From Nemertoderma westbladi (lineage: Eukaryota > Animalia > Xenacoelomorpha), in assembly GCA_032718475.1 (NCBI GenBank), contig JAUCBJ010008747.1:1-64000 (forward strand): 64,000 nt of DNA. The letters run 5' to 3'. How positions within the stretch are numbered: the first letter of the stretch is position 1; each line of letters begins with the position of its first letter. Shown piece by piece: positions 3 to 30,120 of the stretch. Under the pieces are notes generated by a model. It worked only from the letters and a program-made list of their open reading frames with translations. It was not told the origin of the DNA and did not search any database. The position numbers and the translations under genes are program-made.

Positions 3-807
3 ATGATCGCACGCTCCAAGTATTAGCCCTACCCAAAAAACCATATGTTAAATTAATCCCCAACCATCTCTATACTAGATACTGTAGTTTTATGTTTGAA
101 GTAATGCATAATCCCTCGTGCTTGCCATGCCATGCCTAAAACTACGACCTTGTTTGAAATGTTAAGGTGGATTTTTCTATATAAATAAAAATCACGTAAA
201 GTTAAATCTTAATTGTTTTTACTGTCTTAGTAAAACTTCTTAATATTCCTAGTAAAATCTTATTCTTATTCTTATTCTACAACACGTTATTCTTAAATAT
301 AGAAACTAACAATGGAGATGACATATCAAATATGTCCTTACAACCCTTCCCACAGAGTGGCCAATGCTCAAATGCTTAGGCATCTAATAAAATGTAGAAA
401 GCCGGGGGTGGAGTTTGTCAAAGAGTGCCCCAACAATCCAGTGCACAGTTTTCCAAAAGAAGAAAAGGAGTTTCACATAAAGAATTGTCATTATAGGAAT
501 GGGTTACCACATGTTGGTAAGCTCATGAGTTTAGAAAACGATTTGGTTTAAAGAATCAATATGGAGAGAATGAGGGAAAAGTACAACAAGAACAAGATCA
601 ATGCGAATGGCCGACAGAATGGAGAGAAGAAGCTTGGGATTGAGACTGATGGACTAGGTTTGGTTTAGTTTAGTTTAGTTTGTTTTGTTTTGGTTTGGTA
701 TAGTACTATAAAAATATTATTATTAAAATCTTTATTAATTAATGCAATTTATTGTATTTTTGGGAGCAATAGAGCTAATGCGAGCTATAGGGACAATGGG
801 AAGGACA
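3..807 (+). repeat. Left arm of ~800 bp inverted duplication (partner 11594-12378)
   Basis: atgatcgcacgctccaag at 3 is the reverse complement of 12361-12378. Identity continues through the CHHC ORF to gggaaggaca (~807), matching 11594-11603. Confidence 0.95.
312..643 (+). pseudogene. GTSF1/Asterix-like double CHHC (U11-48K-type) zinc finger gene, frameshifted copy
   Basis: Two CHHC fingers: CPYNPSHRV..RHLIKC and CPNNPVH..FHIKNC. A 1-nt deletion near 510 relative to the other copy shifts off the tail ..QCEWPTEWREEAWD* (TGA 641-643). Confidence 0.75.
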
Positions 808-2633: not shown

Positions 2634-4183
2634 TGAGTGAGTGAGTGAGTGAGTGAGTGAGTGAGTGAGTGAGTGAGTGGGTGGGTTGGTGGATGGGTGG
2701 GTGAGTGAGTGAGTGAGTGAGTGAGTGAGTGAGTGAGTGAGTGAGTGAGTGAGTGAGTGAGTGAGTGAGTGAGTGAGTGAGTGAGTGAGTGAGTGAGTGA
2801 GTGAGTGAGTGAGTGAGTGAGTGAGTGAGTGAGTGAGTGAGTGAGTGAGTGAGTGAGTGAGTGAGTGAGTGAGTGAGTGAGTGAGTGAGTGAGTGAGTGA
2901 GTGAGTGAGTGAGTGAGTGAGTGAGTGAGTGAGTGAGTGAGTGAGTGAGTGAGTGAGTGAGTGAGTGAGTGAGTGAGTGAGTGAGTGAGTGAGTGAGTGA
3001 GTGAGTGAGTGAGTGAGTGAGTGAGTGAGTAGAGAGTAGTGAGTGAGTGAGTGAGTGAGTGAGTGAGTGAGTGAGTGAGTGAGTGAGTGAGTGAGTGAGT
3101 GAGTGAGTGAGTGAGTGAGTGAGTGAGTGAGTGAGTGAGTGAGTGAGTGAGTGAGTGAGTGAGTGAGTGAGTGAGTGAGTGAGTGAGTGAGTGAGTGAGT
3201 GAGTGAGTGAGTGAGTGAGTGAGTGAGTGAGTGAGTGAGTGAGTGAGTGAGTGAGTGAGTGAGTGAGTGAGTGAGTGAGTGAGTGAGTGAGTGAGTGAGT
3301 GAGTGAGTGAGTGAGTGAGTGAGTGAGTGAGTGAGTGAGTGAGTGAGTGAGTGAGTGAGTGAGTGAGTGAGTGAGTGAGTGAGTGAGTGAGTGAGTGAGT
3401 GAGTGAGTGAGTGAGTGAGTGAGTGAGTGAGTGAGTGAGTGAGTGAGTGAGTGAGTGAGTGAGTGAGTGAGTGAGTGAGTGAGTGAGTGAGTGAGTGAGT
3501 GAGTGAGTGAGTGAGTGAGTGAGTGAGTGAGTGAGTGAGTGAGTGAGTGAGTGAGTGAGTGAGTGAGTGAGTGAGTGAGTGAGTGAGTGAGTGAGTGAGT
3601 GAGTGAGTGAGTGAGTGAGTGAGTGAGTGAGTGAGTGAGTGAGTGAGTGAGTGAGTGAGTGAGTGAGTGAGTGAGTGAGTGAGTGAGTGAGTGAGTGAGT
3701 GAGTGAGTGAGTGAGTGAGTGAGTGAGTGAGTGAGTGAGTGAGTGAGTGAGTGAGTGAGTGAGTGAGTGAGTGAGTGAGTGAGTGAGTGAGTGAGTGAGT
3801 GAGTGAGTGAGTGAGTGAGTGAGTGAGTGAGTGAGTGAGTGAGTGAGTGAGTGAGTGAGTGAGTGAGTGAGTGAGTGAGTGAGTGAGTGAGTGAGTGAGT
3901 GAGTGAGTGAGTGAGTGAGTGAGTGAGTGAGTGAGTGAGTGAGTGAGTGAGTGAGTGAGTGAGTGAGTGAGTGAGTGAGTGAGTGAGTGAGTGAGTGAGT
4001 GAGTGAGTGAGTGAGTGAGTGAGTGAGTGAGTGAGTGAGTGAGTGAGTGAGTGAGTGAGTGAGTGAGTGAGTGAGTGAGTGAGTGAGTGAGTGAGTGAGT
4101 GAGTGAGTGAGTGAGTGAGTGAGTGAGTGAGTGAGTGAGTGAGTGAGTGAGTGAGTGAGTGAGTGAGTGAGTGAGTGAGTGAG

Positions 4184-4184
<1 letters not shown>
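2634..4184. repeat. (GAGT)n / (ACTC)n microsatellite, ~1.55 kb
   Basis: Near-perfect tetranucleotide array with minor interruptions near 2680-2700 and 3030. Confidence 0.99.
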
Positions 4185-4223
<39 letters not shown>

Positions 4224-4505
4224 TATTGTCTTCACATTAACTGTTACATAACTAACATCGGTAATATGCACTAAACAAGATACAAAATGAGACGTACAAA
4301 TCAAAATATCTACCGTCACCCTCAAAATAAGACAGCACATTATCATACAAAAATATTACAGATGCTTATATAGACAACATTATAGCCGTGTGAGGACCAG
4401 ATGTAATACATAGTAGAGTAACATATATTTATATTCCCAACAAACACACAAACACACATAATACTAACTAAGTATATCAAACATTACATATATCGGGCTG
4501 TTTAC

Positions 4506-7500
4506 TCAATCGAATACATTATCTAATTTTGAGATAAATTTTGCTATTTTGGCTTGGTTATCCAGACAGAACATCTCAGTCATAGATAACCAAGACAGGG
4601 GGGCGCATTCTCGTCTTAACGTCCTTGTCATAGGACAATCTACAACTATATGGGCTTCGGTCTGAATCCCACCACATCCACAAACTCGGTCCTCGGGTTT
4701 AGCCCTCTTCCATCTCATCCGTTCTACTGGGAAGTTATGGCTACCCAGCCGAAAACGGGTCCAGGGGATGCGATGACGTTCGGGAACTGAGGGGTCACAA
4801 TAGAGCTGGGGGGAAGTTAAGTCCGGGTTCATTAGCTTGAACAGGTGGCGTTTCGTACTCGTTGAAAGTGAAACGTTTTTCTTGACGAGTCGGGAACCTT
4901 CGTCTATAACATTACGCTGTTCTGATTTCAAAGAATCTATTTTCGCGGACATCGATGTGTTACCATCTTTCGATATTTCTATTGCGACAGCAAGAGGGGA
5001 GTCTTCAATAACCTTGAATTTAGTAAGGAACTTTCGTTGTCTCTCACGTACCAACGATTTCAAGTCAGGGATTCCCGCTTCAATGAGACATATGTCTCCA
5101 CACGTGGTGGGTCTAACACCTAGCAAACTCCTTACCATTGACATATATAGAGCCTCGACGTCATTCAGATTAGCACCTAACCACGTTTCGCAACCATATG
5201 TTATTGCTGACACAACTGCTGCATTGAACACTTGTTTTTTAATCATAAACGGAATGTCCGGGTTTTTCATTAGAAATGAACTGTACTTAAGCCGATGGCA
5301 TTGTTTCGCAGATGCATGGAGGGATACTGCAGTTGATACTAAACCATCACTGGTGATTGGTGAGCCAAGATAAATATATGATGAAGTATGTTTTATGGTA
5401 TACTCTTCCAGAATGATATCTTCCCTGTCACTCAGAGTGCCGTTTATCACCATAAACATCGATTTCTTCTCGTTCAATGTCATACCAGAAGACTTGCAAA
5501 AATTAATTAGTATATCCAGCTTGGCCAAAGCGGCCAATCTATTTGTTGCAAGCACCGCTGTGTCATCCATTAGTAAAACAGAATGTAGCAACTTTAGCCA
5601 ACTATCGGGGGTGAGGGAACGTAGGGCACGGACAAATACATCTATTAGCAACGTAAACAAATATCCACTGGCAGGGGAACCTTGACGGAGCCCTTTATTA
5701 AATGATACTATAGCAGATCCAATCAGTGCATGTGTTCCTTTGTAAATTGATTGCAATGCACGGAGCATTCTGCCACCGCAACCTCTGTCAAGTAATATCT
5801 GGAACAAGTAATTTCTATTGACGTTATCGTATGCAGTTTTGAAATCTATGAATACCAAAAACAGGGTCTTATTAGTTTCTCTGGCATAGTTACACAGGAG
5901 GCGGAGTGCTAAGATCTGTTCTAAACAGCCTCTTCCTTTACATGAACCGGCTTGCTCAGGGAGAGGTCTCAACCAGGATTGTAGTCTGAAAGTAAGTATA
6001 GCGTCATAGAGCTTAGCTAGAGAATTTATAATACTTATACCGCGGTAATTCGAGCATATCAACTTATTTCCTTTCTTAAACACAGACACAAATCGCGTGT
6101 AACACCAGTTCAAAGGATATAGCCCCGAGGTAAACACACAGTTTAGTATAAAAACAATAGTTAAAAGCCATTGGACAGGTAAGGCTTTCAGGTAATCTGC
6201 AGAAATACCATCAGGGCCACAAGCTCTCCCGCGTCGCAGGTTGGATGCAGCGTTATAGACCTCGTTAATTGTTATGTCATCGTCAAGTAATGGTATATTT
6301 ATGTCTGAGACAATCTCCCGTTCAACAAATGTGTAGTCATTAAGTAGCTTTGAATAGTGTGCGGCAAACTCATCGTCAGTAGGAGTACCGGATTCTTGGT
6401 CAGATAAGACTTCTCCATTCCAGTCTATGGCTGCCCAAAGGCGTTTTGGGTCATTATTGGTTGCGAGACGCGCCCATCGACTCTTCGTTGATCCGAATCC
6501 TGCCGTCACTGGCTCCTGTGTTACATAATTCGAGGTATGTTTTGAGTTAGATATGTATTTGTAAATATTTAGTGAGAAATCACCGCACATTGCATCAATA
6601 TCAGACTGGGCCGTTTGTATAATGGGTTGGTAAATGGTAGCGGGGCGAGCCATGCAGTGAGCATAGCTCGGAGGAATAGCTAACTCTAACAACGACTTAA
6701 ACTTATCAAGTGAAGCGCAGTTGGGTTTAATTCCCTTAACACAATTCACTGTTGGGGGTCCAGATATTGCATCTGAGGCATTCAAAAGCTCATCGCCCAA
6801 ACATTTCGCTCGGTTGAGTAGTTGTGATGACGTTATATTTGTTGCAACAACAGTTACGCTGATCGGAGCATGGTCAGTGGGGAGTCGTAAATCTCTGTCC
6901 ACATTCATGCATTTAATAGCTGAGGGGACTTTAGATACCTCGTTAACCGGGGATACTAAATAATCTAGAGCAGAAACCCATTTATCTTTTATCCTAAACG
7001 TGAGACCACCCTGATAAAGGGATGAATGAGTTGATAAGCCGTTTAAAATTATACATCCAGTGTCATGACAAATGCGTTTGAAAATTTTCCCATGAGAGTT
7101 TATTGTCTGGTCGGGCCATGGTTGGTATTTCCAACCATTGTCCAAAGCAAATGCTGGGTCGGGTGTACCTATACGGCTGTTAAAGTCACCTCCTACAACA
7201 AAAACATCGTCACACAACAATTTACTTTGAACAGTACTAAACGAACATAAATCAAAATATTTCGATTCTTTTGGCGGGATGTAACATCCACCTATTTGTT
7301 TATTACTAACTGATGGGATAGTAACCCAGATTTGGTCTTCAATTGTTTTGTCAACCCGAACAATAAAATCTACCAGATGTGGCTTCACAAATAAGCTTAC
7401 GCCACCACGGTGTTGACGCCCTGTATGTCTTACACTACTACAAACAAAAGAAAAGCCAGGTATAGTAAAAGATAAGTTAGTTTTCACCTCAGACAAAAAT

Positions 7501-7619
7501 AGAATATCAAACTGTAAAAAGTACCTTACTGTATATAAATCGTCAAACTTGTTTTTTATACCAGCAATATTACACCATACAATCTTTAGTTCTCCATCAC
7601 ACGGCCCAGTTAAAAATCC
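4506..7619 (-). CDS. LINE ORF2: apurinic-like endonuclease + reverse transcriptase + C-terminal Cys/His motif
   Basis: Endonuclease motifs WCNIAG (upstream of the called start), LSE, GGV, GDFN and TDH. RT motifs GPDG, YRGIS, FIDFKTAYD, GLRQG, LMDD and YLG. C-terminal CGCGGIQTEAHIVVDCP. The frame is stop-free from 7619 to 4506. Confidence 0.93.
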   Translation of the reverse strand, partial: GFLTGPCDGELKIVWCNIAGIKNKFDDLYTVRYFLQFDILFLSEVKTNLSFTIPGFSFVCSSVRHTGRQHRGGVSLFVKPHLVDFIVRVDKTIEDQIWVTIPSVSNKQIGGCYIPPKESKYFDLCSFSTVQSKLLCDDVFVVGGDFNSRIGTPDPAFALDNGWKYQPWPDQTINSHGKIFKRICHDTGCIILNGLSTHSSLYQGGLTFRIKDKWVSALDYLVSPVNEVSKVPSAIKCMNVDRDLRLPTDHAPISVTVVATNITSSQLLNRAKCLGDELLNASDAISGPPTVNCVKGIKPNCASLDKFKSLLELAIPPSYAHCMARPATIYQPIIQTAQSDIDAMCGDFSLNIYKYISNSKHTSNYVTQEPVTAGFGSTKSRWARLATNNDPKRLWAAIDWNGEVLSDQESGTPTDDEFAAHYSKLLNDYTFVEREIVSDINIPLLDDDITINEVYNAASNLRRGRACGPDGISADYLKALPVQWLLTIVFILNCVFTSGLYPLNWCYTRFVSVFKKGNKLICSNYRGISIINSLAKLYDAILTFRLQSWLRPLPEQAGSCKGRGCLEQILALRLLCNYARETNKTLFLVFIDFKTAYDNVNRNYLFQILLDRGCGGRMLRALQSIYKGTHALIGSAIVSFNKGLRQGSPASGYLFTLLIDVFVRALRSLTPDSWLKLLHSVLLMDDTAVLATNRLAALAKLDILINFCKSSGMTLNEKKSMFMVINGTLSDREDIILEEYTIKHTSSYIYLGSPITSDGLVSTAVSLHASAKQCHRLKYSSFLMKNPDIPFMIKKQVFNAAVVSAITYGCETWLGANLNDVEALYMSMVRSLLGVRPTTCGDICLIEAGIPDLKSLVRERQRKFLTKFKVIEDSPLAVAIEISKDGNTSMSAKIDSLKSEQRNVIDEGSRLVKKNVSLSTSTKRHLFKLMNPDLTSPQLYCDPSVPERHRIPWTRFRLGSHNFPVERMRWKRAKPEDRVCGCGGIQTEAHIVVDCPMTRTLRRECAPLSWLSMTEMFCLDNQAKIAKFISKLDNVFD

Positions 7620-8327
7620 TTACCCACTGCTTTATAAATAACGTCATCTCCTCTCTTGACGCTCTTGGCCTTCCAGTCAATATATACCACCTCACCCGCG
7701 TTTATTGGTTTATTCTTTTCTTCAATGAGGACCTGTATGAGTTTTTTCCGTTCAGCTTGGATCTTTGGGCTCACGTCTTTCTTAACATATATTCCTTTAT
7801 ATTTAGAGCTTTCAGATGAGAGATTCTTCGCACCCGTTATGGCGATATCCCTTTCATAGTCAGAAAGAAAGCGGATCAAAATCGGACGGGGCCGGGTCGT
7901 ATTCCCTGTCTGCTCGTTGGGGTTAAACCTTCCGAGACGCCTCAGAGAGTACTTAGCGTCGCTTGGTAAACCTGTTACTTGTAGTATCTCTGAACAAACG
8001 ATTTTTGTGTCAGCTAATTCGCCCTCTTTGACGCCGCGTATTATAATGTTCCTAGACCTGCTTTCGGCATCGAAATACTCCAATTGGCGTTGGTGGATAG
8101 CTAGTGTTTTCTTACAGTCTTCCATCTCCGATTTTAAGGTAACATTGCTTCTCTGCTCCGCTGCCAACTTGTCTTTAAGAACAGACACTTCCGTTCTTAG
8201 GGCTCCCAACTCCTCGATCTGTTTTCGCACTAATGATATATCGCTCTTCATGTCAATCATTTCGGATCTTATAGCATCTCGAATTATCTCCGCTAAGTCG
8301 CTGCCATTTGGTTGGCTCGGTGTGTTC
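7610..8327 (-). CDS. LINE ORF1 (coiled coil + RRM-like), N-terminally truncated by the microsatellite
   Basis: Heptad-rich segment, then RSRNIIIRGVKE, RRLGR, RPRPILIRF and IYVKKD..ER motifs typical of LINE ORF1. The THSL repeats in the called ORF are translated microsatellite. Confidence 0.85.
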
Positions 8328-9174
8328 GTGAGTGAGTGAGTGAGTGAGTGAGTGAGTGAGTGAGTGAGTGAGTGAGTGAGTGAGTGAGTGAGTGAGTGAG
8401 TGAGTGAGTGAGTGAGTGAGTGAGTGAGTGAGTGAGTGAGTGAGTGAGTGAGTGAGTGAGTGAGTGAGTGAGTGAGTGAGTGAGTGAGTGAGTGAGTGAG
8501 TGAGTGAGTGAGTGAGTGAGTGAGTGAGTGAGTGAGTGAGTGAGTGAGTGAGTGAGTGAGTGAGTGAGTGAGTGAGTGAGTGAGTGAGTGAGTGAGTGAG
8601 TGAGTGAGTGAGTGAGTGAGTGAGTGAGTGAGTGAGTGAGTGAGTGAGTGAGTGAGTGAGTGAGTGAGTGAGTGAGTGAGTGAGTGAGTGAGTGAGTGAG
8701 TGAGTGAGTGAGTGAGTGAGTGAGTGAGTGAGTGAGTGAGTGAGTGAGTGAGTGAGTGAGTGAGTGAGTGAGTGAGTGAGTGAGTGAGTGAGTGAGTGAG
8801 TGAGTGAGTGAGTGAGTGAGTGAGTGAGTGAGTGAGTGAGTGAGTGAGTGAGTGAGTGAGTGAGTGAGTGAGTGAGTGAGTGAGTGAGTGAGTGAGTGAG
8901 TGAGTGAGTGAGTGAGTGAGTGAGTGAGTGAGTGAGTGAGTGAGTGAGTGAGTGAGTGAGTGAGTGAGTGAGTGAGTGAGTGAGTGAGTGAGTGAGTGAG
9001 TGAGTGAGTGAGTGAGTGAGTGAGTGAGTGAGTGAGTGAGTGAGTGAGTGAGTGAGTGAGTGAGTGAGTGAGTGAGTGAGTGAGTGAGTGAGTGAGTGAG
9101 TGAGTGAGTGAGTGAGTGAGTGAGTGAGTGAGTGAGTGAGTGAGTGAGTGAGTGAGTGAGTGAGTGAGTGAGTG
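8328..9174. repeat. (GAGT)n microsatellite, ~850 bp
   Basis: Perfect tetranucleotide array in the same orientation as 2634-4184. Confidence 0.99.
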
Positions 9175-11429: not shown

Positions 11430-11593
11430 GTGAATCAGAAAATATTTATAAAAATAATAAGCAGGATAAGAATTACTATCAAAAAGAATAAAAAGTTATA
11501 AACATCTTAATTAAATATAATAATGGGTGAGGAAAATTGTAATGAACTTAAAGACTTTTATTAACCAATAAGAAATAGTAGAAATTGTACATT

Positions 11594-12378
11594 GTCCTTC
11601 CCATTGTCCCTATAGCTCGCATTAGCTCTACTGCTCCCAAAAATACAATAAATTGCATTAATTAATGAAGATTTTAATAATAATATTTTTACAGTACTAT
11701 ACCAAACTAAACTAAACCAAACCTAGTCCATCAGTCTCAATCCCAAGCTTCTTCTCTCCATTCTGTCGGCCATTCGCATTGATTTTGTTCTTGTTGTACT
11801 TTTCCCTCATTCTCTCCATATTGATTCTTTAAACCAAATCGTTTTCTAAACTCATGAGCTTACCAACATAGTGGTAACCCATTCCTATAATGACAATTCT
11901 TTATGTGAAACTCCTTTCCTTCTTTTGGAAAACTGTGCACTGGATTGTTGGGGCACTCTTTGACAAACTCCACCCCCGGCTTTCTACATTTTATTAGATG
12001 CCTAAGCATTCGAGCATTGGCCACTCTGTGGGAAGGGTTGTAAGGACATATTTGATATGTCATCTCCATTGTTAGTTTCTATATTTAAGAATAACGTGTT
12101 GTAGAATAAGAGTAAGAATAAGATTTTACTAGGAATATTAAGAAGTTTTACTAAGGCAGTAAAAACAATTAAGATTTAACTTTACGTGATTTTTATTTAT
12201 ATAGAAAAATCCACCTTAACATTTCAAACAAGGTCGTAGTTTTAGGCATGGCATGGCAAGCACGAGGGATTATGCATTACTTCAAACATAAAACTACAGT
12301 ATCTAGTATAGAGATGGTTGGGGATTAATTTAACATATGGTTTTTTGGGTAGGGCTAATACTTGGAGCGTGCGATCAT
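11594..12378 (-). repeat. Right arm of ~800 bp inverted duplication
   Basis: Reverse complement of 3-807 with few differences. Confidence 0.95.
11737..12069 (-). pseudogene. GTSF1/Asterix-like double CHHC gene, copy with in-frame TAA
   Basis: The 69 aa ORF ends LPLCW*. The same frame continues AHEFRKRFGLKNQYGENEGKVQQEQNQCEWPTEWREEAWD* to 11737, giving ~110 aa in total. Confidence 0.75.
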
Positions 12379-15141: not shown

Positions 15142-15937
15142 ATTCTTATACCAAACAACACCTACGTAATTAAGCCTAGTGTTCAAAGTGTTAATTGCAA
15201 TTATATTGCTCATTAATCCTTTATCTCATACACAAATCGTGACTAATCTTTTATTTATGCTTAATTCATTTCACACTTCAGAACAATCATACATATTTAA
15301 TTTATTTTTATACTACAGTAAAGAGCATACTAATCTAGTTTTTTCTAGTTTTTTGCGAAGCTGTGCTCTTATAAATTACAAACTTGAGAAGCTGTGTCCT
15401 ATGAAAATTATAATAACATGAAATCACTCAAAAAACTGATTTTATAAACATTACATACATAGTAATTTCAAATTAGGTATGACACATAATAAAAGAAATG
15501 CCGCTTTTACTTTGATCTGTTTATTTACAATATATTTCAATAGGATTACATAATTGCAACACACAATAATGACAACACTGCTTTTTTCTTTGATATTTTT
15601 AATTGCAATGCTATCAACCTAAAGATAATCTCTAAAACTATGCAAAATTTTCTTTTCATAAAATGACAATTTTTTAAAAGATTATAAAAGGATTATTTTT
15701 CCAGTCATAACGGCGCCAATAGTCTATTTTTAAACCCTAGTGAAACCGTAATGAAACCTCTCCTAATTGGATAACCTACACTTTTGGCTACATTTTGATT
15801 GGTTTTTGCTTCCGATTGGACAAATCGTTATACAAATCCATATATAAAGCATCTTTAGCAAAAGTTTTTCATTCTTTCGAATAATCACTCATATTCAAGT
15901 AAACTTTATCATTTTTTGTTATAATTTGTTTTCATTA
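15142..15937 (+). repeat. Polinton left TIR
   Basis: attcttataccaaacaacacctacg.. is the reverse complement of the sequence ending at 30907. Similarity runs ~790 bp. Confidence 0.93.
15765..15850 (+). promoter_or_regulatory. CCAAT (ATTGG x3) + TATA promoter inside the TIR
   Basis: attgg at ~15766, 15798 and 15816, then tatataaa at 15841, ~140 bp upstream of ATG 15983. Mirrored in the right TIR upstream of pPolB. Confidence 0.6.
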
Positions 15938-15982
15938 ATTATTTTAAATAATTGACAAATAGCTTATTCATCTCACTCACTC

Positions 15983-17646
15983 ATGGATCTAACAACCAAC
16001 GAAAATGAGATCTCAGTATCCGACAATTCATTTGGGTTTTATTTCGACTCCTCCAACCAAAAGTTCCCATTCACTGTCAACACCTTTCGTAATCATCCTA
16101 CTCGCATCCCTTCTCATTATGCTCATTTTATAATGAGGGCCTGCTATCAGTTGGAAGACGGGGTTTATCAATCTTCAGATGAAACATTATACTGCCCAAC
16201 AAATGATTGCCTTAAAGTGCAAAAGTCACAAGATATTGTATCTTTCAATATTCCCACTATTGAAGAAACTTTTACAATTCCATCTTCTGTTTTTACCTTC
16301 ATTCGTGACAACCATAATCATGAAAGTTTTGAAAAAATGTTGGGACCATCATCGTTGAAAGCTACATTTTCTGCTGATAACTCACCCTTCGATTTTCATG
16401 CAACTGCAAAATCAATGTTTCTTCTAATTTGGAATCATAAACCAACAATTAATCCAGAGAACAATCAAGAATGTAGGATATTCAAATTATTCAATATGGA
16501 TATTATTACTTTGTGGGAGAAAATGAATGAGCTAATTTGTATATATGACAAAAAAACCGAGTTACATTTTGGTTTTAATTTTAAAGTTGCTCAGTCATCA
16601 AACACTCAACCATCTACCTATACTGAAATTGTCAACCTTACGGATACCATCAATGGAGGGTGGCTACCTATCTCAGCTACAGCTATCGCTCTTCTTCGAC
16701 ACTATCTCGAAGTCTGTCGTCCATTCATCAACACACAAATACACTTTATTCTTCATCCTGGCAATTATGTTTCCTTCGATAGTTCAACATTTGGCTATAT
16801 TACAAATCTTCAACAAGAAAGGAATATTGCCATTGCCTCAGGAGTAGAAGTCGATGCTGGTAAAGCCATAATCTCACTACATGATTCGATATTACTAACC
16901 CCAGAAGAAGTAAACAAATTAACATTTGATACAGATGAAGCAGATGAATTTGATGAATTAAGTGAGAAACGATTAATCTCTGAAAGAATTAAACTTCACT
17001 TTATGATGCTTCGAATACTGTTGAAATCAGTGATAGGCTCTTGCATACTGCCTTCACTTTTGACAATGATGATCGAGCAACGGAAGCTTTGATACAACTA
17101 CAAAATATGCTTCATGATGTTGCTACTTCAAAGGAAATAACTCTTCCCAATCATCAATGCATGGAATTGAGCAAATCACTCACGAGTTTCATTTACACCT
17201 TCAAGGGGACAAACTACGTTGGAATCTGGCCATACAAACAAAAAGATAATAAATTTAAAACAATATTGTTTACAAGTGGGATGAATATCAAGTCAGATTT
17301 TTTCAAAAAGTTTCATGTAATGCGACAATCACCAAATCATCCTCAATGTTGCATCGCACCACATATTCATGTTCGTTATGCAAATGGTGAAACAATATTA
17401 ACCAATTTGAAGTCCCACAACCAAATTTTGCTTTCAGCAAATTTTGGAGTTGAGCATTGCATCAATTTCCTCAAACAAAAATTAGACAACGCGGTTTATC
17501 TTCCCAACCAACATCATTTGAATCTGTTTCATCCTACTTCCCTCTCAACACCACCAAAAATGTCCAACATTTCTAAAGAAATGTATAAAATAAAATTACC
17601 TACCATATGTCATAAAGACGAAAAGAAAATGAAACTAGATGATTAA
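15983..17646 (+). pseudogene. Polinton accessory protein with PC4-like ssDNA-binding repeat(s), frameshifted near 17040
   Basis: Overlapping ORFs of 369 aa and 201 aa. FIYTFKGTNYVGIWPY..SGMNIKSDFF resembles the PC4 pattern FKGxxYxxIRxY..GIxL. Confidence 0.5.
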
Positions 17647-18063
17647 CTCTTTCATATTATTCATAATTATTTAACTCTTGTGTGTAAGGAATAATTATCT
17701 GCTTTGTGTGACTTATATATCTTCAATGTTTATTTTGTTATATGTCTCTTGTATATAAGGAATATTATATATCTACTTTGTGTGACTTATTATATCTTCA
17801 ATGTGTATTTTGTTATATAACTAACACATTTCATAATTATTTAGTATAATATATTGATGATGTCGGCTATAAAAATTCAAAGTTTCCCTCATAATTTAAA
17901 AAAAAAATAAAGGAAATTTTTTCCACTCAACTTTTTATAATATATTTTTATATACTATATGACTAAATGATATTGACACACAACTATATATAAATACATC
18001 TACATGATTAAATATAATTAACACACACACACATATACACATTACATAATATATAAAATAACA

Positions 18064-18492
18064 TCATCTCTTTTTAGTCTTTCTTCTCAACCAGCATGCT
18101 AGTACTTTTTCATTATGCAACAACTCACTACTAAATATTTTCAATGGATTGACATTTTTTGGACGCTCACATAAATAATATAAGCAATATCTACCACAAC
18201 TTGTACGAAAAGGATGCTGAATTATCTGACGTGTTCTTTCCCATACAATTGTATTACGAACCAACCAATCTTCAATTCTTGGAGTTGGATATTGAGCAAA
18301 TGAATCAAAATATTCACCTTTACCATCACATACATATATAGCTACCCAATGAGTTCCAGGCAAATGACTTGGTTGAATATTACTAATGAAGCTCATCTCT
18401 CTAGAATCTATCTGAGGAAGCTTATCCACTGGAAAAGATCCTCTATAATGATTACCAACAGGATAATCATTTAAATCATATGAGTTTAACAT
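18064..18492 (-). CDS. Adenain-like cysteine maturation protease
   Basis: PGTHWVA (His), EYFDSF (Asp), Q..SCGRYCL (Gln/Cys). Confidence 0.92.
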   Translation of the reverse strand: MLNSYDLNDYPVGNHYRGSFPVDKLPQIDSREMSFISNIQPSHLPGTHWVAIYVCDGKGEYFDSFAQYPTPRIEDWLVRNTIVWERTRQIIQHPFRTSCGRYCLYYLCERPKNVNPLKIFSSELLHNEKVLACWLRRKTKKR

Positions 18493-18502
18493 TTCTTTTA
18501 TT

Positions 18503-19745
18503 TTAAAAGATAGTTACATTACCGTCTTTACTTATATTGAGACTCTTATCATATCCCATCCAGAGAATAATGTTTATTGTTGCTGGTAGTGCATTAGCAA
18601 ATTGCAACTCTAATCTTGCATTGCCAACATGTCTAGGTAAGAAATCATCACTATCTAAGTAACCATCTGGAGCAAGGTTCAAAATAAAGAAAGGGTACAT
18701 ATCACGGAAGCTAGTAGGAGTAATTGCGTTACTAGTGCCTCGTATGATAGAAGTAAGGTTATTCTGAGTATTCATTTATATATTGATTGGCACCAAAATT
18801 TGGTTTATAAGTGACACCACCAAGAACTTTTCCATCCAATGTTATTTGTAAAAAATTTACATCAAAATGCTGAAATGCCATTGAATTACGTCCATATATA
18901 CCTTTATATGCATCATTACGAATCATTCCCAAAATAATAAATCTCGGAGTATTGTTGCCAGCAAATATGTTTTCACGTACATGTGATCTCTGACCATTAC
19001 CAACTGTAAAAGTTGTAACTTCATTTTGTATGAATGGATATATAAAATCTTCCCTCTGTAGAAGATCAACATGTTCTTTCATGAGACTATCTTCTATTTT
19101 TATTCGTTTTGTTTTTAAGACAGCTTTTGTAATATTTACTCTACCTCCTTCAATGTCATCTCCACAAGTTAAACTAAAGTTATCAGGTGCTCTTGTTAAA
19201 GTAATTCTAACACTTGTTCTTGGTGGCAGTACTTTTATTTGATCAAAGATATCAATAAATAATAATCCTTGTACTTGATATTGTGAGCTTTTCAACGCTT
19301 CAGCATTTTCAAAAACAATAGGAACTCCATTTGTGGTTTGCTCTGCATATCCAGCTGCCGTAAGTATTGTTTCTTTAGTATTTCTATCATTAACTAAAAC
19401 AGCCTTTAAAAATGCTTTGTAAGCATAGTTTGAGGTATTGGGTTCAACCTGGCATTCATTAATCAATACATTAATATTAGAGAATAATGTTGATAAGGTT
19501 AATGGTGTTATTGAAACCACACCATTATTTGGTCGAGCTGTAGTTGATACTTCATAGACTATTTGTAGAGTTGTATCACCTCCTACAGTATAATATTCAT
19601 CTGATTTTTCAATTACAAAATCGATTACACTAGTTCCAATTCCAAGTGTTGTTATTGGATATACTTCATGTTCAAAACTTTCATTAATAATACTCTGTGT
19701 AGTAAAGTTGCTAAATAAATTTAATTAATCTATTGTTTCACTCAT
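18503..19745 (-). pseudogene. Major capsid protein (double jelly-roll), with nonsense and frameshift
   Basis: ATG at 19745 (MSETID*LNLFS..TQ..EVYP), NYAYKAF, PRFIILGM, FQHFDVN, RLELQFANALP..I. Stop at ~19726 and frameshift at ~18770. Confidence 0.85.
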
Positions 19746-19765
19746 TGTTATAGATTTTAACAAAA

Positions 19766-20345
19766 TTAACTAAAAATATCATCACAATCGTGTCTTTGAC
19801 CTTTGGTAACCTTTCTCCTTTGATATTTATTAACATTTATCCTTTTCCTTTTTTGTGGTTCGTTTATTGATGATGCATTTGCATTAAGAACCTCACGAAT
19901 TATTTTATTTGCTACACGTCTAGTTATTGGTTTGGTTCTTTTTAGCAATTTGTTGCATAGTTTGTTTAACTATTTTTCTTCTTGATTTTTTGAGTAATGG
20001 TACTCCTTTACGAAGAGCCGCTCGTGCAACAGGTTTAGCAATTTTTGGAATGACTTTTGCTGCCATTTTTACAATATTTCCAAATAATCCACGACCACGC
20101 TGCCCATACCTAGCATAGATAGTTCATGTATTCAAACGTCGACTTCTTAAACCACCTCGAAAATAAGGGAGACTTCCACTACTATTTCCCCATCCTCTTC
20201 CATCTTGCTTATAGCGCATTAGAAGGCGATATGGTGTAGTTTGACCAATTCTTCTTTTTCCTAAAGGATCAGTAGGATCAGGATATGAACCACCCTTAAC
20301 TAAGTAATTATCAACGCTTGACATTCTTTTTATTAAAAATATCAA
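19766..20345 (-). pseudogene. Basic virion core / membrane-lytic-type protein with GRG protease sites
   Basis: QDGRGW and QRGRGLFGNIVKMAAKVIPKIAKPV (amphipathic helix), with a basic tail ending DDIFS. In-frame TGA at 20124 and a frameshift at ~19940. Confidence 0.7.
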
Positions 20346-20390
20346 TTAGTAATATAAAATGAAGAAACAATGATTTGTTTTAGTCAACGT

Positions 20391-21182
20391 TTATTGATGC
20401 TTTAATAATAAAGTAACAACTACAGTCCCAGAATTAAGGTCTATCAAATTTCCATCATCATCTTTTAGCTGAATGTTTATTATTTCAATGTTTTGCATAT
20501 CAACAGGCTTATAATTTATGTTGTTGAATTCACGATGAACCAAAGACCCATAGTCACCTTCATATGGAATTGTTCTCAATAATGGCTTCAATTGATGTCA
20601 TACTATAACATTTGCACTTATATTGGAATAAATATTAATATTACCACTAAAGAAATCACAAGCTTTTTGAATGAAAAAAGTATCTTCATCGAGCATCATA
20701 GAACGGTTTATTTGCAAATATCCATTTTGTTTAATAACTTGGAAACGTTTTTTACTAAAGTAATTTTCTTCTTCCAACCCCAACAAACCTAGCATTCGAA
20801 TCAATTTATTACTATGAAAACGTATACGTTTGATTTTTTTCAAAAAGTGAAGCGAAATAGTATTATATAATGTATTAAATTGAATTTTTACTCTCATATC
20901 TAAAACACTCGCATTCAATTGTTCAATCAAGGTTTCTATATTGTCATAACAACCGGCAGATAATATATATCTCTTTATTTTTCCACGAACTCCTTGTGTA
21001 GTAATTAGAGTATCATTAATATTATACATTGAAGCCAAGTAAGTAATTTCTGATAATCCCACCATCCACATCCCACTCAAACGTAATGGTTGTGATAATT
21101 CTACATTAAAATTTGATGGTTTATTCTGTGGAAATCTTTCAGGTGATGAATTAGAAGGTAAATATAAAACAGTTTGCTGCAT
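20391..21182 (-). pseudogene. Minor capsid (penton-like) protein paralog 2, in-frame TGA at 20598
   Basis: LYLPSNSS..FPQN..F.VEL..L.G.W.VGLSEI.Y, IYSNI..VIV*..PLLRTIP and IQLKDDDG..VTL. Confidence 0.8.
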
Positions 21183-21184
21183 TA

Positions 21185-22009
21185 TTATTTCTTTTTTTGA
21201 CGTAAGTGTAAGGTGATTAGAGTGAATCCTGCATTAAATAGCAAAAGTTCTCCTTTTTCGTTTCGTATCTCAACTGCTATTTGATTAATAATATTGTTTG
21301 CTATAGGTCTATAATAAACTTTCCTAAAATCACTTGGGATAATATTATTTTGCTGAAGTATGATAGGTAATGTACGTAATAATGGCGCTGTTGTATTACC
21401 AACAATTGTATAAGATGTTATATCACTATAAAAGAATAAATTTTGTCTTCCTCTTACCAAATCACATGAAAAAGGACTAATTTTAGAAAAATCTTTACGT
21501 TGATTAGGTTTCTGCTTAAGTGATAAGTTATCTGTCTTTCCTATAGCAATGTTCCAATATTGATGCCACTCAACCTCTATATTATCATTCACAAATCCAT
21601 CAAAACCTAATATAGTTTTCAAATCTCCAGTTATCTCAAATGAAAAATTCTTTGAACAAGTTAGTTTAATTTTATTTGAAAATTTTATATATTTTATATT
21701 TATTGTTGTTTGAGAGTAACCAAAAGCTTCAAATGTTTCATTAATTTTTTGAACGATTGCTTCCATGCTTAAGTATAATCCTGGAGTAAAAAGAACAACA
21801 TTTCGAGAACCATTTTGATAGTAGAATATAAACTGTGATATTTGCTCAATGTTATAATATGAAGAAGAATATCGAATTTCAGATAAACCAACTTCTACAT
21901 CTGATGACAAATATAATGTATATGGAAGCTCAACTATAAATGAACTTAATGAATTATTAGGGAACCTCGAAGTTGGACCATTAGAAAATAATGTAATATA
22001 ACTATTCAT
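21185..22009 (-). CDS. Minor capsid (penton-like) protein paralog 1
   Basis: YITLFSN..FPNNSLSSF..VGLSEI.Y, FYSDI..IVGNTTAPLLRT and IRNEKGE..TLHLR. Confidence 0.85.
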   Translation of the reverse strand: MNSYITLFSNGPTSRFPNNSLSSFIVELPYTLYLSSDVEVGLSEIRYSSSYYNIEQISQFIFYYQNGSRNVVLFTPGLYLSMEAIVQKINETFEAFGYSQTTINIKYIKFSNKIKLTCSKNFSFEITGDLKTILGFDGFVNDNIEVEWHQYWNIAIGKTDNLSLKQKPNQRKDFSKISPFSCDLVRGRQNLFFYSDITSYTIVGNTTAPLLRTLPIILQQNNIIPSDFRKVYYRPIANNIINQIAVEIRNEKGELLLFNAGFTLITLHLRQKKK

Positions 22010-22049
22010 TTTTGGAAATTATATAAATTAAGTTAAATTTAATCATAAC

Positions 22050-23110
22050 TTATTTACGTAGTTGGTTTCCATCAATCCACATATTTCGCTTATTACCCTT
22101 AAATCGTACTAAATATTGCTTGCTTTTGTTTTTTATACGTTCTTTGACTATTTTTTCAATTGGAAAAATATCTGTAGCTTGCTTCACTAGTTGAAGTTCT
22201 TCTTCATAGAAGGTGCCCTCAATATCTCTACCAACAGAATCAGTTATATGATACATTGGATATGGAAGATGATCTCTTCTAATACGTTTTATCTTAAAAA
22301 TTTCATTTGTCCAGTTCCCAATATATGATTTTTCAAATACATGTTTAGCAATATTAAGTCGTACACTATTACCTATTTTCAACTTTGGTTTAGAGAGCTT
22401 CTTAACTGTACCAAAAAGTTTTAGTCTCACTATAGCTTGATTTTGCTTATTTACTTGTAAAGGCTTCATTCCTATTGATCTATGAAATGTATTATTATAT
22501 GTATTAATAATTTTAGGAAGGATATCTACCCATTTAGTATTTCTTCTACGAGTAAATATTTTGAACATCCGTGACTTTAAAGTACGATTAAAACGTTCAC
22601 AAATTGCGGCTTTGAATTGGGATCGAGTTGTATAATAATTCACCTTATTTTTCTTTAGATAAGTCAGTACTATGCGATTATTGAATTCAAGTCCTTGATC
22701 ACTATTGATCACCTTGATCAAAAAATTATTTCTAAATCTACCTTAATTTCTTTCCCTGTTTTTCGTTTTAGTGGTAATGCCCAAACTTGTTTTGAAAAAC
22801 AATCAATTACTGTTATAATATAATTGAAACCAGAATTAACATTGCTATATTTCTGCATATCAACCAAATCTGTTTGTATAGTATCTCTTATACCCGAAAT
22901 AAACATTCTAGAAGTGGGATAATAATGCCTTCTAGCTGATCTATGAAGAGTGTAGGTCGGTTGACTCGCTAGCCAATTTTTTACAATACTTTGCTTCAAC
23001 CCGCTCGCTTTGCTTAGTGCTTTTACGCCACCAAACCCTGCAGTGTTTGAAATATTGTAGTAAACAGCAGCTAGCCGACGATCTCGTTGGTTCACCATCA
23101 CTTTGGTCAT
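22050..23110 (-). pseudogene. Retroviral-like DDE integrase with C-terminal chromodomain, frameshifted near 22720
   Basis: YTLHR, QTDLVDM, IDCFSK, SDQGLEF, ERFNRTLK, YNNTFHRSIGMKP, FYEEEL and QYLVRFKG..W. Confidence 0.93.
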
Positions 23111-23204
23111 AACTACGTTTTTGACTTATACAATTACACACACAATCACAATTGATTTTCAATCTCTTAAACCAAGACATTATTATTAATATTATTACTA
23201 CTAT

Positions 23205-23432
23205 TTATATATAGTTCAAAAAAGCAATGTCGTTTATTGTTTTGATATGTTTTTTATTAGTTATTTGCTTTGAATTCTTGAGTGTCTTCTTCTTCTTCTT
23301 TTTCTTCATCTTCTTCTTCTTCTTGATATTTTTTAAGAGTTTTGTTTGTAATGGAATAGGTTTAGTATATTTTTGTTGTTCTAATAAATTATATTGTTCT
23401 GGTGTTATGAGATACATTTTATGAAATGACAT
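23205..23432 (-). CDS. Small Lys-rich Polinton protein (possibly truncated)
   Basis: KMYLITPEQY N-terminus and poly-Lys; abuts neighbouring genes. Confidence 0.5.
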   Translation of the reverse strand: MSFHKMYLITPEQYNLLEQQKYTKPIPLQTKLLKNIKKKKKMKKKKKKKTLKNSKQITNKKHIKTINDIAFLNYI

Positions 23433-23434
23433 GG

Positions 23435-23800
23435 TTATGATGCAGCAGATGCGATAGTTGTAGCTCTAACAGCTCTAACGGCTCTAACAGCCTCTACAGC
23501 TCCAACTATTAAAGGAATAAGGAATGGAAGGAATCCCCCTTTCTGTGATAATTTCTTACGATAATCCTTAATATTTGAATGCTTCTTAAAATTTCGCATT
23601 TGACTTTTATATGGAGCTAGTTTATTAGCATCGGAAGCTTTTAATCTGAGATTTCCATATAAAACATTTAATGTGATATTGATGAGAAAACGAATTAATT
23701 CATTACTAGCTTGTGTTCTAATAAATAATCCTCGAGCACGAGGTGTGCTATTTTTCAAAAACTCCAACTCAGAACGATGCTTATGAATAATAGACTTCAT
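23435..23800 (-). CDS. Polinton structural/core protein with QKGGFLP motif
   Basis: NVLYGNL and LSQKGGFLPFLIPLI, an adenain-type GG cleavage site followed by a hydrophobic helix. Confidence 0.75.
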   Translation of the reverse strand: MKSIIHKHRSELEFLKNSTPRARGLFIRTQASNELIRFLINITLNVLYGNLRLKASDANKLAPYKSQMRNFKKHSNIKDYRKKLSQKGGFLPFLIPLIVGAVEAVRAVRAVRATTIASAAS

Positions 23801-23985
23801 GTTATTAACTTATTTGAAAAAAAAAAGAATATAAAACTTCAAAACAAACATTTATTAACTAATACGCTTATAAGTGACAAATTTGCATAAAATATATACA
23901 CAAACTAATTAATGATAGAAAGTAGCATATTATTGATATTAAAAAGTAATATACATATGATATATATTGATCAATATTATTATCA

Positions 23986-24621
23986 TTATTGTAAATAAAC
24001 ACAATGTTTATGTGTAAACAGATGCCCCCGAACAAGATAATTATCATTTGTTAACTGATCAAAATCAATGATTAACGGATGAAATGGTTCTGCAGTTGCA
24101 TCACGAAAGGCATCAATTAAGAATTTAGGGTTTGTTGGATTCATCTGATATGAAAGTACACGAATTTGTGTTTGGTCTCTAGGAATTTTAAAAATAATAA
24201 AGTATGTACTATTAATTGAACGAGTTCTTGCTTCTGCTCCTCTTTGATATAAGTTTTGTATTAATAAAATAACTACAGAATGTGTATGTCGAGCAATTTT
24301 GGTGAATAATTGTGTAGTTTGCTTTGAACTTTCTAGCTCACTCATAAGATCATCAAAAACTAATATTGTATTTCTCTGAATATTTTCATTTAAATTTTCA
24401 GGAATTGTATTTAATATAGTTATATTTATCCCTCTAATGTTAGGTTTTGTTTGACCATAGAACCATATGATATTATTAGAAGGAGTATCAAATATAGTTT
24501 TCCTATTTTGAAGCAGTTTTTCAACAAATGTTGTTTTACCACTTCCAGATGGTCCTGCTATTAATATTGTGCTTCCAAATCTAAATCGTACATCAATAGG
24601 GTTATGAGATTTGCTAGCCAT
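23986..24621 (-). CDS. FtsK/A32-like genome packaging ATPase
   Basis: Walker A GPSGSGKT, Walker B LVFDDLM, RH..S and QNL, RT..NSTY...FK.PRD. Confidence 0.93.
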   Translation of the reverse strand: MASKSHNPIDVRFRFGSTILIAGPSGSGKTTFVEKLLQNRKTIFDTPSNNIIWFYGQTKPNIRGINITILNTIPENLNENIQRNTILVFDDLMSELESSKQTTQLFTKIARHTHSVVILLIQNLYQRGAEARTRSINSTYFIIFKIPRDQTQIRVLSYQMNPTNPKFLIDAFRDATAEPFHPLIIDFDQLTNDNYLVRGHLFTHKHCVYLQ

Positions 24622-25111
24622 TATTTTATAAAATGTTTATCATTATTATTATTAAAAGTTTGATATTATCTTGCGCTTATTAAAATTTTCAAATATAAAA
24701 TCTATATGAATTTTTTAAAAATAGAATTAGGCTATATATAGGATAACAATTAGTAACTAAGCCAATATCAAATTAATATAATTACAACAAATTACTATAA
24801 TGAATGCTACTCCTTATACATAAGATTACATGAAAATATGACTTTAATTGAGATAATAATTCTCATTCAAAACTAATCAAGCATATGATAAAATTGGCTA
24901 TATATAATATAGTATATTTAAAGCTATTTCTACTTAAGAGTCAGCAAAAACCTAATTTACTATAAAGAAATGGAGACATTAATTAAGTCTATAAGATAAT
25001 CATATTTACATATTATTATTTCCTAAAGTTCATTTAATAAATAAAGTTTATATAGAATACAATAAGATTTAGCGTTTGAATAACAAAATATAAATTATGC
25101 TAATTGCATAT

Positions 25112-25662
25112 TATATATTTACAAAATAATTTATATACATTATCAAACATAGTTGGATGAGTCATAGATACTATCTTACCAGTATGAAAAATACTAAAAT
25201 ATCACGTATTTATGAAGCATCGTATACCACAAAATAGTTCAGGGTTATAATCTAAGTGAAAGCTATCATTATTTATTTTAAAATTTCCACATTTTTCAAG
25301 ACATTTTCTAAAGTTGATTTCAAGAAAGATGATGCGGGTTTCAGTATTTAGTTTTAAATTTGCTATTTTCAAACTGGTAAGGTTTGCTATATAATCAATT
25401 TGTAAAAGTATATTACTACATAGGCCAACGATTGTTATAGCACCACTCTCAAAAAACATAAAAGTTGCCTCATGATTGCGAAAAATTAACATTTTCGGTT
25501 TTGTTACCAAATGACCATCTATTTGTTTAGATAACTGTATTAAATCTAGTTTTGAAGAGCAGTATGAAGAATATTGTCGATTAACAATTTGATTTAGTTT
25601 AGAAGAAATGATTTGTTTGTCTTTCTTTAATGTTGCATTATCATTAGTTTTTAGTGTTATTC
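25112..25662 (-). pseudogene. Divergent TATA-binding-protein (TBP)-like gene, in-frame TGA at 25202
   Basis: Repeat 1: IVNRQYSSYCSSKLDLIQL..KMLIFRNHEATFMFFESGAITIVG. Repeat 2: LNTETR..DYNPELFCGIRCFINT*YFSIFHTGKIV. Compare TBP KLDL..LIFSSGK..G and YEPELFPGL..LIFVSGKVV. Confidence 0.7.
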
Positions 25663-25707
25663 TAAAAATAGAAGAATAGAATGATTATGAGTTTTCTATT
25701 ATTAGTT

Positions 25708-28700: not shown

Positions 28701-29820
28701 GTTGGCGTAATATTGTAACCGATTTTGTGTTTTCGTGCCAGAGGAGTAAGTTTATACAATACTTGTTATTATCCTTTTCAAATTTATCAATGCCTGTTTT
28801 TATATCTACAGGAAAGGTAAGAGATGAAAAATCGAATTCATTAAGGTAAGGTGTAAATGTTGAAACTCTGCTAATATTTTGTTTTTTCCTATCAATTTTA
28901 TGCTGGAAGGCTGTAGCTAAAACTGCATACTGAAAACATTGTGGACAGTCGACATTAATAGTACTCATTTTGCCAGCCAAATTTTTTGGTATCTTTCCGC
29001 CATTACCTTTAAAATATGCATTGCGATTACAGACAGAAATTTGAATATTAATCCTATCTATTTGTACTAACCGCCAACCAGAACCCATATGTACAAAACT
29101 AGCAACTAGCTCATCTATCCTACCAACAGCATTTTGGTACCAACGTTCAAAATCATTTTCGGATGTAATTTTGTTATTTTCCCCACTAGATTTGAAACAA
29201 AATGTTTCCATTTGCACCCCATCCCCTTGCTCCCGTTCCAAAATTAAAAATATTGAAAGCCAAATTTTTATAAAAACACCTAAATTATTCGAAAAATGTT
29301 GATTCACCCTCCCCCAAACATAAGGCCTATTTTCGTCGAGTGTTTCTTCTATATCTAGATGAGCGGTTGTTAGTTTATTACTATACTCAAATAAATTGTC
29401 GTGGGCAGATGTAGTGTTGGGAAAAACTTCTTCAAAATTATTTGGAGAAGAAGAAGAAGTAGATGGTCCAGCCCCAACTTGTCCCACTGGTGATGACACT
29501 GGTGATGTAGATGGAAACACATCTTGATGTTTTCTTTTACGTGAGATCAATTGAGTGTAGCAAGAGTGTTCTTTAAAAGAAGAGAGAGTGAATGTTTCAC
29601 CGCATTTGCAACTTGAAGGTTCGTTGACAAAGGTGAAACCAGTTCCCCCTTCTTTGCAAAGAGATTGGTGTGCGATTGCACTTTTCTTTTCGGATGTGAA
29701 GACATTGCAATTGTCACATTTATATTGTTTGAAGTGTGTTTGAAGATGATGGCTAAGATTATTGGATCTCATCTCAATTTCGCAGACAGGGCAAACGATT
29801 ATTCGGGAAGACATAGGCAT
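25708..29820 (-). pseudogene. Protein-primed family B DNA polymerase with N-terminal Zn finger and endonuclease-VII-like insert; split into five ORFs
   Basis: GSGW, CFQYAV, DHDHYTGKYRGAACVSCN, FHNL..YD, FLDSFQFM..SLD, KGVFPY, DANNLYG, KLLNNALYGK, DTD, PKVYS and KGV motifs. Confidence 0.95.
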
Positions 29821-29884
29821 TGTGAATGAAAAAGTGAACTTGAATTTTTAAATGAAATATAACTTTGCAGTGTAGTAAAGACTT

Positions 29885-30085
29885 GGTTGATAAAAATACT
29901 TGAATTGTTGTAAAGTTTTTTTTTTTTTTTTTGTAGAATAACTTTGCTGATATAACTTGATGAGAGATAAATAGTTGAATTGTTGAAAAGTTTTTTTGTA
30001 GAATAACTTTGTTGATACAACTTGATGAGAGATAAATACTTGAATTATTGTAAAGTTTTTGTAGAATAACTTGTTGAATTGTTGT
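29885..30085. repeat. Degenerate ~60-70 bp tandem repeat upstream of pPolB
   Basis: Recurring gtagaataactt..ttgatgagagataaata.ttgaatt.ttg.aaagttttt. Confidence 0.65.
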
Positions 30086-30120
30086 ATTAGTATGATAATA
30101 ATAAATTATATTAAATAATA

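What the first reader, a model, noticed from the sequence alone, without database searches (positions are those of the whole stretch)
2634..9174. LINE embedded in (ACTC)n arrays with an (AATC)n tail: probable microsatellite-targeting or microsatellite-seeding element
Seen: both ends of the LINE join directly to same-orientation (ACTC)n arrays (1.55 kb and 0.85 kb). The 3' tail (AATC)9 differs from the array unit by one base and grades into it in register. The 5' end is cut within ORF1 exactly at the array. Known: microsatellite-specific APE LINEs occur mainly in the Tx1 and R1 clades; this one has a different LMDD-type RT. Inference: the tail pairs with the target to prime TPRT, or reiterative RT extends the array. 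The intact ORF2 suggests recent activity.
Basis: partly seen in the sequence, partly recalled or inferred. Interest (0 to 1): 0.7.

Follow-up and report, generated by a model that had tools for sequence, protein, structure and literature searches.

The report
Young LINE landed in ACTC repeat
A young jumping gene sits inside a long four-letter DNA repeat, but other copies of its family appear to lie in ordinary DNA, so it likely landed in an existing repeat that its tail could partly pair with, rather than being a dedicated repeat-targeting or repeat-making element.

Summary
A minus-strand LINE (4222-8327) has an open 1037-aa endonuclease-RT ORF2 with an LMDD motif. It ends in AATAAA-C-(AATC)9 and joins in register to (ACTC)n arrays of 1,552 and 847 bp.

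Strict targeting is not supported. In public contigs of three runs, 0 of 11 displayed 5'-side loose ends start with the repeat. Six of them, at five places, look like 5'-truncation junctions in other DNA. Fifteen of 33 rows were hidden, and the 3' flanks of other copies were not seen. None of four decayed relatives from other sources has arrays on both sides; one ends AATAAAT(ACT)4 in unique DNA.

Seeding is unlikely. A tail-made repeat lies on the 3' side only, and both arrays have degenerate outer ends.

Best reading: a weakly specific LINE, with the hexamer-plus-microsatellite tail that is common in RTE-group LINEs, primed on a pre-existing (ACTC)n array. A real family preference for (ACTC)n remains possible (about 0.23). 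The clade is unresolved: the RT forms its own lineage and differs from Proto2-Snek. Side lead: ORF2 lacks an early AUG and overlaps ORF1 at G_GAU_UUU_UAA, a possible -1 frameshift site.

The parts
2634..4184 (-). 3' flanking (ACTC)n array, about 388 units; interruption near 3029-3037; C-rich variant units near 2678-2700
4185..4221 (-). element tail C(AATC)9, in register with the array
4222..4227 (-). AATAAA hexamer directly before the tail
   Evidence: same layout in relative L090 and in Proto2-type ends
4222..4505 (-). 3' UTR, 284 nt; last 145 nt with tail fold no better than shuffles (z 0.57)
4506..7619 (-). ORF2, 1037 aa stop to stop: APE endonuclease (N17, E44, D145, N147, D219, H250), RT (FIDF 590, RQGS 645, LMDD 683, YLG 750), C-terminal Cys/His motif (980-995); first Met at codon 238
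   Evidence: model mean pLDDT 78, best fold match human L1 ORF2p, E 1.1e-29
7610..7619 (-). 10-nt ORF1/ORF2 overlap, G GAT TTT TAA; candidate -1 frameshift site (inferred, untested)
   Evidence: G_GAU_UUU is a shift site in pea enation mosaic virus (PMC5009743 passage); no downstream hairpin
7610..8327 (-). ORF1, 5'-truncated, 238 aa: long N-terminal helix, then an L1-ORF1/FP25K-like region
   Evidence: low confidence, pLDDT 55; score 0.93, PF25298 on 63-67% of members; a lead only
8328..9174 (-). 5' flanking (ACTC)n array, 211 perfect units, with a C-rich cryptic outer end
3..807 (.). left arm of a long inverted repeat that encloses the whole unit (may start before the window)
   Evidence: I1, I4, I6: 95-99%
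11593..12378 (.). right arm of that inverted repeat; the enclosed DNA looks like a Polinton derivative (inferred)

Best explanation
This is a young, 5'-truncated APE-RT LINE with an (AATC)n tail that likely inserted into a pre-existing (ACTC)n array, and its family likely has no strict target. Shown: the domains, the tail, both junctions, and near-identical family sequence in three runs. Inferred mechanism: the endonuclease (or a spontaneous break in the long repeat) nicked the (GAGT)n strand. The (AAUC)n RNA tail annealed in register at 3 of 4 bases per unit and primed reverse transcription. Synthesis stopped up to about 370 nt short of the 5' end and joined the upstream half of the array. 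The array was thereby split into 847 and 1,552 bp; any target-site duplication is invisible in a perfect repeat. Later slippage may have changed both lengths.
For: Other copies: 0 of 11 displayed 5'-side loose ends begin with (GAGT)n. One is poly-G, one an internal variant, three continue as diverged paralogues, and six rows at five places (7143 in X1 and X2, 5354, 5157, 5631, 7336) are unlike the element and non-repetitive (compared by eye). In X3 contig depth steps up at three of these places (57 to 125, 119 to 203, 132 to 240), as truncated copies would cause; the tool warns that depth is no copy number. Relatives: 0 of 4 family loci have arrays on both sides; L090 ends AATAAAT(ACT)4 in AT-rich unique DNA. 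Hexamer-plus-microsatellite tails are ordinary in Proto2-type LINEs. Tail-target overlap is described for RTE, L2 and CR1. Degenerate outer ends point to an older array.
Against: Only 18 of 33 loose-end rows were shown, and the tool drops human-like contigs without notice, which could hide repeat junctions. The five junctions could be later insertions or deletions. At 7143 the depth step is 89 to 101 in X1 but only 82 to 84 in X2. The four relatives are decayed and 30-37% identical, so they say little about this family. No 3' flank of another copy was seen. The tail-pairing step rests on one junction, with about 1-in-4 odds of being in register by chance. L003 breaks off into an (ACT)n run, and one X3 contig has a (TAG)n loose end at 5329, so links to microsatellites recur.
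Confidence: 0.5

Rival explanations
1. The family prefers (ACTC)n, through its endonuclease or its tail, with some off-target copies. It would be a microsatellite-targeting APE lineage outside Tx1 and R1.
For: Same repeat, same strand, on both sides; near-cognate tail in register. One published criterion calls a family target-specific at more than 20% of flanks (PMC4494074 passage); 1 of 6 known junction places here (17%) is close to that. Hidden rows could hold repeat junctions.
Against: 0 of 11 displayed 5'-side loose ends show the repeat; 0 of 4 relatives lie between arrays. The 1-of-6 count includes the locus that was picked for having the arrays.
Confidence: 0.23
2. Pure coincidence: a non-specific insertion, or repair at a break, in a large array, with no role for the tail.
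For: The arrays are 4.0% of this window; a near-cognate tail has odds of 13 in 60. A scan of very many windows will collect such cases.
Against: Orientation, unit similarity and register all fit pairing at once; tail-target overlap is common in related LINE groups.
Confidence: 0.15
3. The element seeded the arrays: reiterative reverse transcription or a mutated tail made (ACTC)n, which then expanded.
For: The tail grades into the array in register; RTE LINEs do create microsatellites by slippage (PMC2887409 passages).
Against: In that paper the new repeat lies at the 3' end between the target-site duplications. Here an 847-bp array is also on the 5' side, the unit differs from the tail, the boundary is sharp, and variant units lie at the far ends. 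No duplication longer than a 6-mer was found outside the arrays. About 600 units would have to arise around a very young copy.
Confidence: 0.08
4. Assembly mis-join through the repeat.
For: No long read across the arrays was examined; no listed contig spans the element.
Against: Left and right flanks belong to one inverted-repeat-bounded element. Both junctions are element-to-repeat, so a mis-join inside an array would not remove them. One X3 contig matches the window without a difference over 7307-8326 and ends 28 nt further on, as expected on entering a repeat (letters not shown).
Confidence: 0.04

Closest known systems
Microsatellite-specific APE LINEs: Kibi (TC)n, Koshi (TTC)n, crocodilian Tx1 on (TTCC)n/(TTTC)n; Waldo (ACAY), Mino (AC)n (PMC3812793 and PMC4494074 passages)
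   Same: APE-RT LINE with the same microsatellite on both sides.
   Different: Those are family-wide preferences in the Tx1 and R1 clades. Here one locus shows it, five other candidate junctions do not, the RT motif is LMDD, and (ACTC)n is not among the targets listed in those passages.
RTE LINEs with microsatellite tails (Tay et al. 2010, PMC2887409; PMC6007223; passages)
   Same: Microsatellite tail instead of poly(A); tail proposed to guide or prime insertion; 5' truncation.
   Different: Their repeat is short and on the 3' side only. This element has two ORFs and a C-terminal Cys/His motif; RTE is typically single-ORF (recalled).
Proto2 (Proto2-Snek and relatives, PMC7846101 passages and supplement)
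   Same: Similar length (4,357 bp against about 4.5 kb inferred here); AATAAA directly followed by a short microsatellite.
   Different: Proto2-Snek relatives read MYADDL; four codon patterns for MDDT had 0 hits in that supplement (line breaks can hide matches). The TGGAC motif before their hexamer is absent here but present in L090.
Human LINE-1 ORF2p (PDB 8sxt, 9k6i)
   Same: APE-RT-C-terminal domain order; best sequence (E 3.4e-21) and fold (E 1.1e-29) match among solved structures.
   Different: About 14% identity in the structural alignment; poly(A) tail; separate, non-overlapping ORFs.

Membership tests
APE-type non-LTR retrotransposon | APE endonuclease followed by RT in one ORF | tested here: met
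APE-type non-LTR retrotransposon | 5' truncation and a simple-repeat or poly(A) tail | tested here: met
APE-type non-LTR retrotransposon | target-site duplication | tested here: inconclusive
   hidden in a perfect array; nothing above a 6-mer outside the arrays
Microsatellite-specific LINE (Kibi/Koshi/Waldo/Mino type) | same microsatellite on both sides of a copy | tested here: met
   one locus
Microsatellite-specific LINE (Kibi/Koshi/Waldo/Mino type) | strict form: most copies flanked by the repeat | tested here: not met
   0 of 11 displayed 5'-side loose ends; 15 of 33 rows hidden
Microsatellite-specific LINE (Kibi/Koshi/Waldo/Mino type) | loose form: more than 20% of flanks (PMC4494074) | tested here: inconclusive
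   1 of 6 known junction places, biased sample
Microsatellite-specific LINE (Kibi/Koshi/Waldo/Mino type) | endonuclease cleaves the repeat | not testable with these tools
   needs an assay
Tx1 or R1 clade | RT phylogeny with named references | not testable with these tools
   no named reference sequences could be put in the tree; LMDD and an ORF1 without a Cys/His knuckle in the 238 aa kept argue against (clade traits recalled)
Proto2 clade | RT motif of Proto2-Snek relatives (MYADDL) | tested here: not met
   other Proto2 lineages were not seen
Proto2 clade | AATAAA followed by a short microsatellite | tested here: met
   not unique to Proto2
Microsatellite-seeding RTE (Tay et al.) | new repeat on the 3' side only, inside the duplication | tested here: not met
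   an 847-bp array on the 5' side too

The most novel reading that the evidence does not exclude
An undescribed LMDD-type APE LINE lineage, outside Tx1 and R1, homes to (ACTC)n arrays by annealing a near-cognate (AAUC)n RNA tail, so that the tail sets the target; it may also make its RT by -1 frameshifting from ORF1.
Probability: 0.2. Interest if true: 0.6.

Novelty: new member of a known kind. Interest (0 to 1): 0.3.

Why it matters
If the best reading holds, this is an ordinary event: one LINE copy in one long repeat. It is a fair example of tail-assisted priming and a warning against calling targeting from one locus. If the family does prefer (ACTC)n, it would add a third APE lineage to microsatellite targeting. 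It would also offer a clean test of whether tail or endonuclease picks the site, since tail and target differ by one base per unit. The LMDD lineage has no names in the protein collection and may need a clade assignment. The AUG-less ORF2 with a known shift heptamer is directly testable.

Tried and rejected
No whole genome is held, so copies could not be tallied directly.

No RNA holder was listed. Run X5 laid 0 records, which is no proof of absence. The contig ends at both termini of the element remain unread.

Viral contigs held no relative and no tail-array junction pattern. ORF1 had no homologue at E 0.001 among 295 candidates and no Pfam hit above cut-off; its single-sequence model was too poor to search.

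No RNA structure above shuffles at the 3' end or after the candidate shift site. No second copy of the element in the window. No homologous empty site in the rest of the window.

LMDD terms had no hit in 12 of 33 supplementary files of PMC10294476; 21 files were not searched. The clade-defining paper that I tried by a recalled id is not held. The profile search of protein representatives was queued and had not finished.

Element-length contigs of relatives (2.5-5.0 kb) were rejected as evidence for repeat flanks, because any young multicopy element breaks short-read assemblies that way. Earlier findings by place and by sequence: none.

Full report
Observation. The element lies on the minus strand. 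ORF2 (4506-7619) is open for 1037 codons and carries an APE endonuclease and an RT. The catalytic residues are in place and the RT motif is LMDD. An AlphaFold model from a 17-sequence alignment (mean pLDDT 78) matches human L1 ORF2p best. A 238-aa ORF1 piece runs to 8327. After a 284-nt 3' UTR come AATAAA, C, (AATC)9 and, in register, (ACTC)n; the 5' end joins 211 perfect ACTC units. The arrays are 1,552 and 847 bp. Both outer ends carry C-rich variant units.

Context. The unit lies between inverted repeats of about 800 bp. Two inner ORFs begin with a zinc finger like that of an ORF of the neighbouring Polinton-like element: 59% over 41 aa, E 3e-15, and 43% over 23 aa, E 9e-05. The host is therefore probably a Polinton derivative (inferred). 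Both flanks belong to one element, which argues against a mis-join between them.

The family in this species. No genome is held. Three runs from two studies hold 0.79-0.93 of the sampled words; one may be the window's source. Of their laid contigs, 26 of 52, 35 of 50 and 13 of 27 are at least 99% alike, so the family is young. One X1 contig extends 370 nt past 8326, so the window copy is 5'-truncated. One X3 contig matches the window exactly over 7307-8326 and ends 28 nt further on; its letters were not shown.

The key test: 5' junctions of other copies. One search showed 18 of 33 loose-end rows; 11 lie on the element's 5' side and none begins with (GAGT)n. By eye against the element, one is poly-G, one an internal variant, and three continue as diverged paralogues. 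The other six rows, at five places (7143 in two runs, 5354, 5157, 5631, 7336), are unrelated, non-repetitive DNA; the one at 7336 starts with a short duplication of element sequence. In X3 contig depth rises at three of these places. The tool warns that depth is no copy number, and in X2 the step at 7143 is negligible. These rows argue against strict targeting. They do not exclude a preference: 15 rows were hidden, human-like contigs are dropped silently, and 3' flanks were not seen.

Relatives. 27 proteins passed E 1e-20; 15 are 34-40% identical over 56-97% of ORF2, and none has a name. Fourteen of those 15 carry LMDD. In a quick RT tree of 80 rows, 19 rows of this family group with support 94, and with three further rows at 100. 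The tree held no named reference, and loci whose single best segment was under 200 residues (L002, L003 among them) were left out. DNA was found for four family loci among 100 fetched. L001, L002 and L090 have non-repetitive 5' flanks. L090 ends AATAAAT(ACT)4 in unique DNA. L003 breaks off into (ACT)n at its contig end. All four are decayed and distant, so they are weak evidence, but they show that a hexamer-plus-microsatellite tail can go with ordinary flanks.

Mechanism. Shown: anatomy and junctions. Inferred: a nick on the (GAGT)n strand, in-register annealing of the (AAUC)n tail at 3 of 4 bases, priming, early termination and joining to the upstream array. Tail-target overlap and tail-guided site choice are proposed for RTE, L2 and CR1 (PMC6007223, passages). 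Seeding by slippage is described for RTE, but gives a 3'-side repeat inside the duplication (PMC2887409, passages), which does not fit here. The coincidence odds at one locus are modest.

Comparison with what is known. Target-specific APE LINEs are mostly Tx1 and R1 (PMC4640811, passages). Listed microsatellite targets are ACAY, AC, TC, TTC, TAA, TTCC and TTTC (PMC3812793, PMC4494074, passages). Proto2-Snek relatives share length and tail style but read MYADDL (PMC7846101, passages and supplement). I found no paper describing an LMDD LINE or an (ACTC)n-targeting LINE in the listings. Those searches did not use LMDD or ACTC as terms, and they do not cover Repbase Reports or most subscription journals, so the family may already be catalogued. 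PMC10294476, PMC3747384, PMC3124438, PMC13708176 and PMC5786205 were seen as passages and added nothing on targeting by this lineage.

Side lead. ORF2 has no Met before codon 238 and overlaps the ORF1 stop by 10 nt in the -1 frame at G GAT TTT TAA. No difference near this site was listed in three runs (26 rows not shown). Four close relatives (P0003, P0005, P0030, P0059) have a called start reading ME a few residues before the same position. G_GAU_UUU is a -1 shift site in pea enation mosaic virus, where a nearby stop is needed (PMC5009743, passage). No stimulatory hairpin was found. This is untested.

Verdict. The feature is real. It is most likely one copy of a young, weakly specific LINE in a pre-existing array (0.5), with a family preference possible (0.23), coincidence (0.15), seeding (0.08) and mis-join (0.04) behind. 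It is a new member of a known kind; interest 0.3.

Noticed in passing
window 303-548 (+) and 11863-12078 (-): Each arm of the inverted repeat holds a short ORF with two CHHC zinc fingers (zf-U11-48K, E about 1e-14), the domain pair of the piRNA factor GTSF1 (recalled). A Polinton-like element may have captured a piece of a silencing gene in its terminal repeats.
   Followed up: partly
window 7610-7619 (-): AUG-less ORF2 overlapping the ORF1 stop at G_GAU_UUU_UAA; candidate -1 frameshift.
   Followed up: partly
window 15142-30907: Polinton-like element with inverted repeats, polymerase B split over several ORFs (DNA_pol_B_2), A32-type ATPase and an ORF with a weak chromodomain hit.
   Followed up: partly
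window 36907-38499 (-): A second, unrelated LINE RT fragment with an FADD motif, outside the LMDD group in the tree.
   Followed up: partly
window 5583, 5855, 5927 (loose ends): The same runs hold at least one other, diverged LMDD family; one loose end reads as LLLMDDSVI by eye.
   Followed up: no
window 5329 (run X3): One contig joins the RT region to a (TAG)n run: an antisense insertion with such a tail, or a copy broken at a microsatellite.
   Followed up: no
window 51346-54163 and 54187-63997: Long satellites with 24-bp (116 copies) and 28-bp (352 copies) units, so kilobase tandem arrays are common here.
   Followed up: no
window 43060-43584 (+): Exon-like piece with a Na+/Pi cotransporter hit (E 2.1e-06, below cut-off).
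   Followed up: no
L090:219-2450: An animal-type LINE with AT-rich flanks abuts bacterial-looking coding DNA in a binned genome contig, probably a chimeric contig.
   Followed up: no
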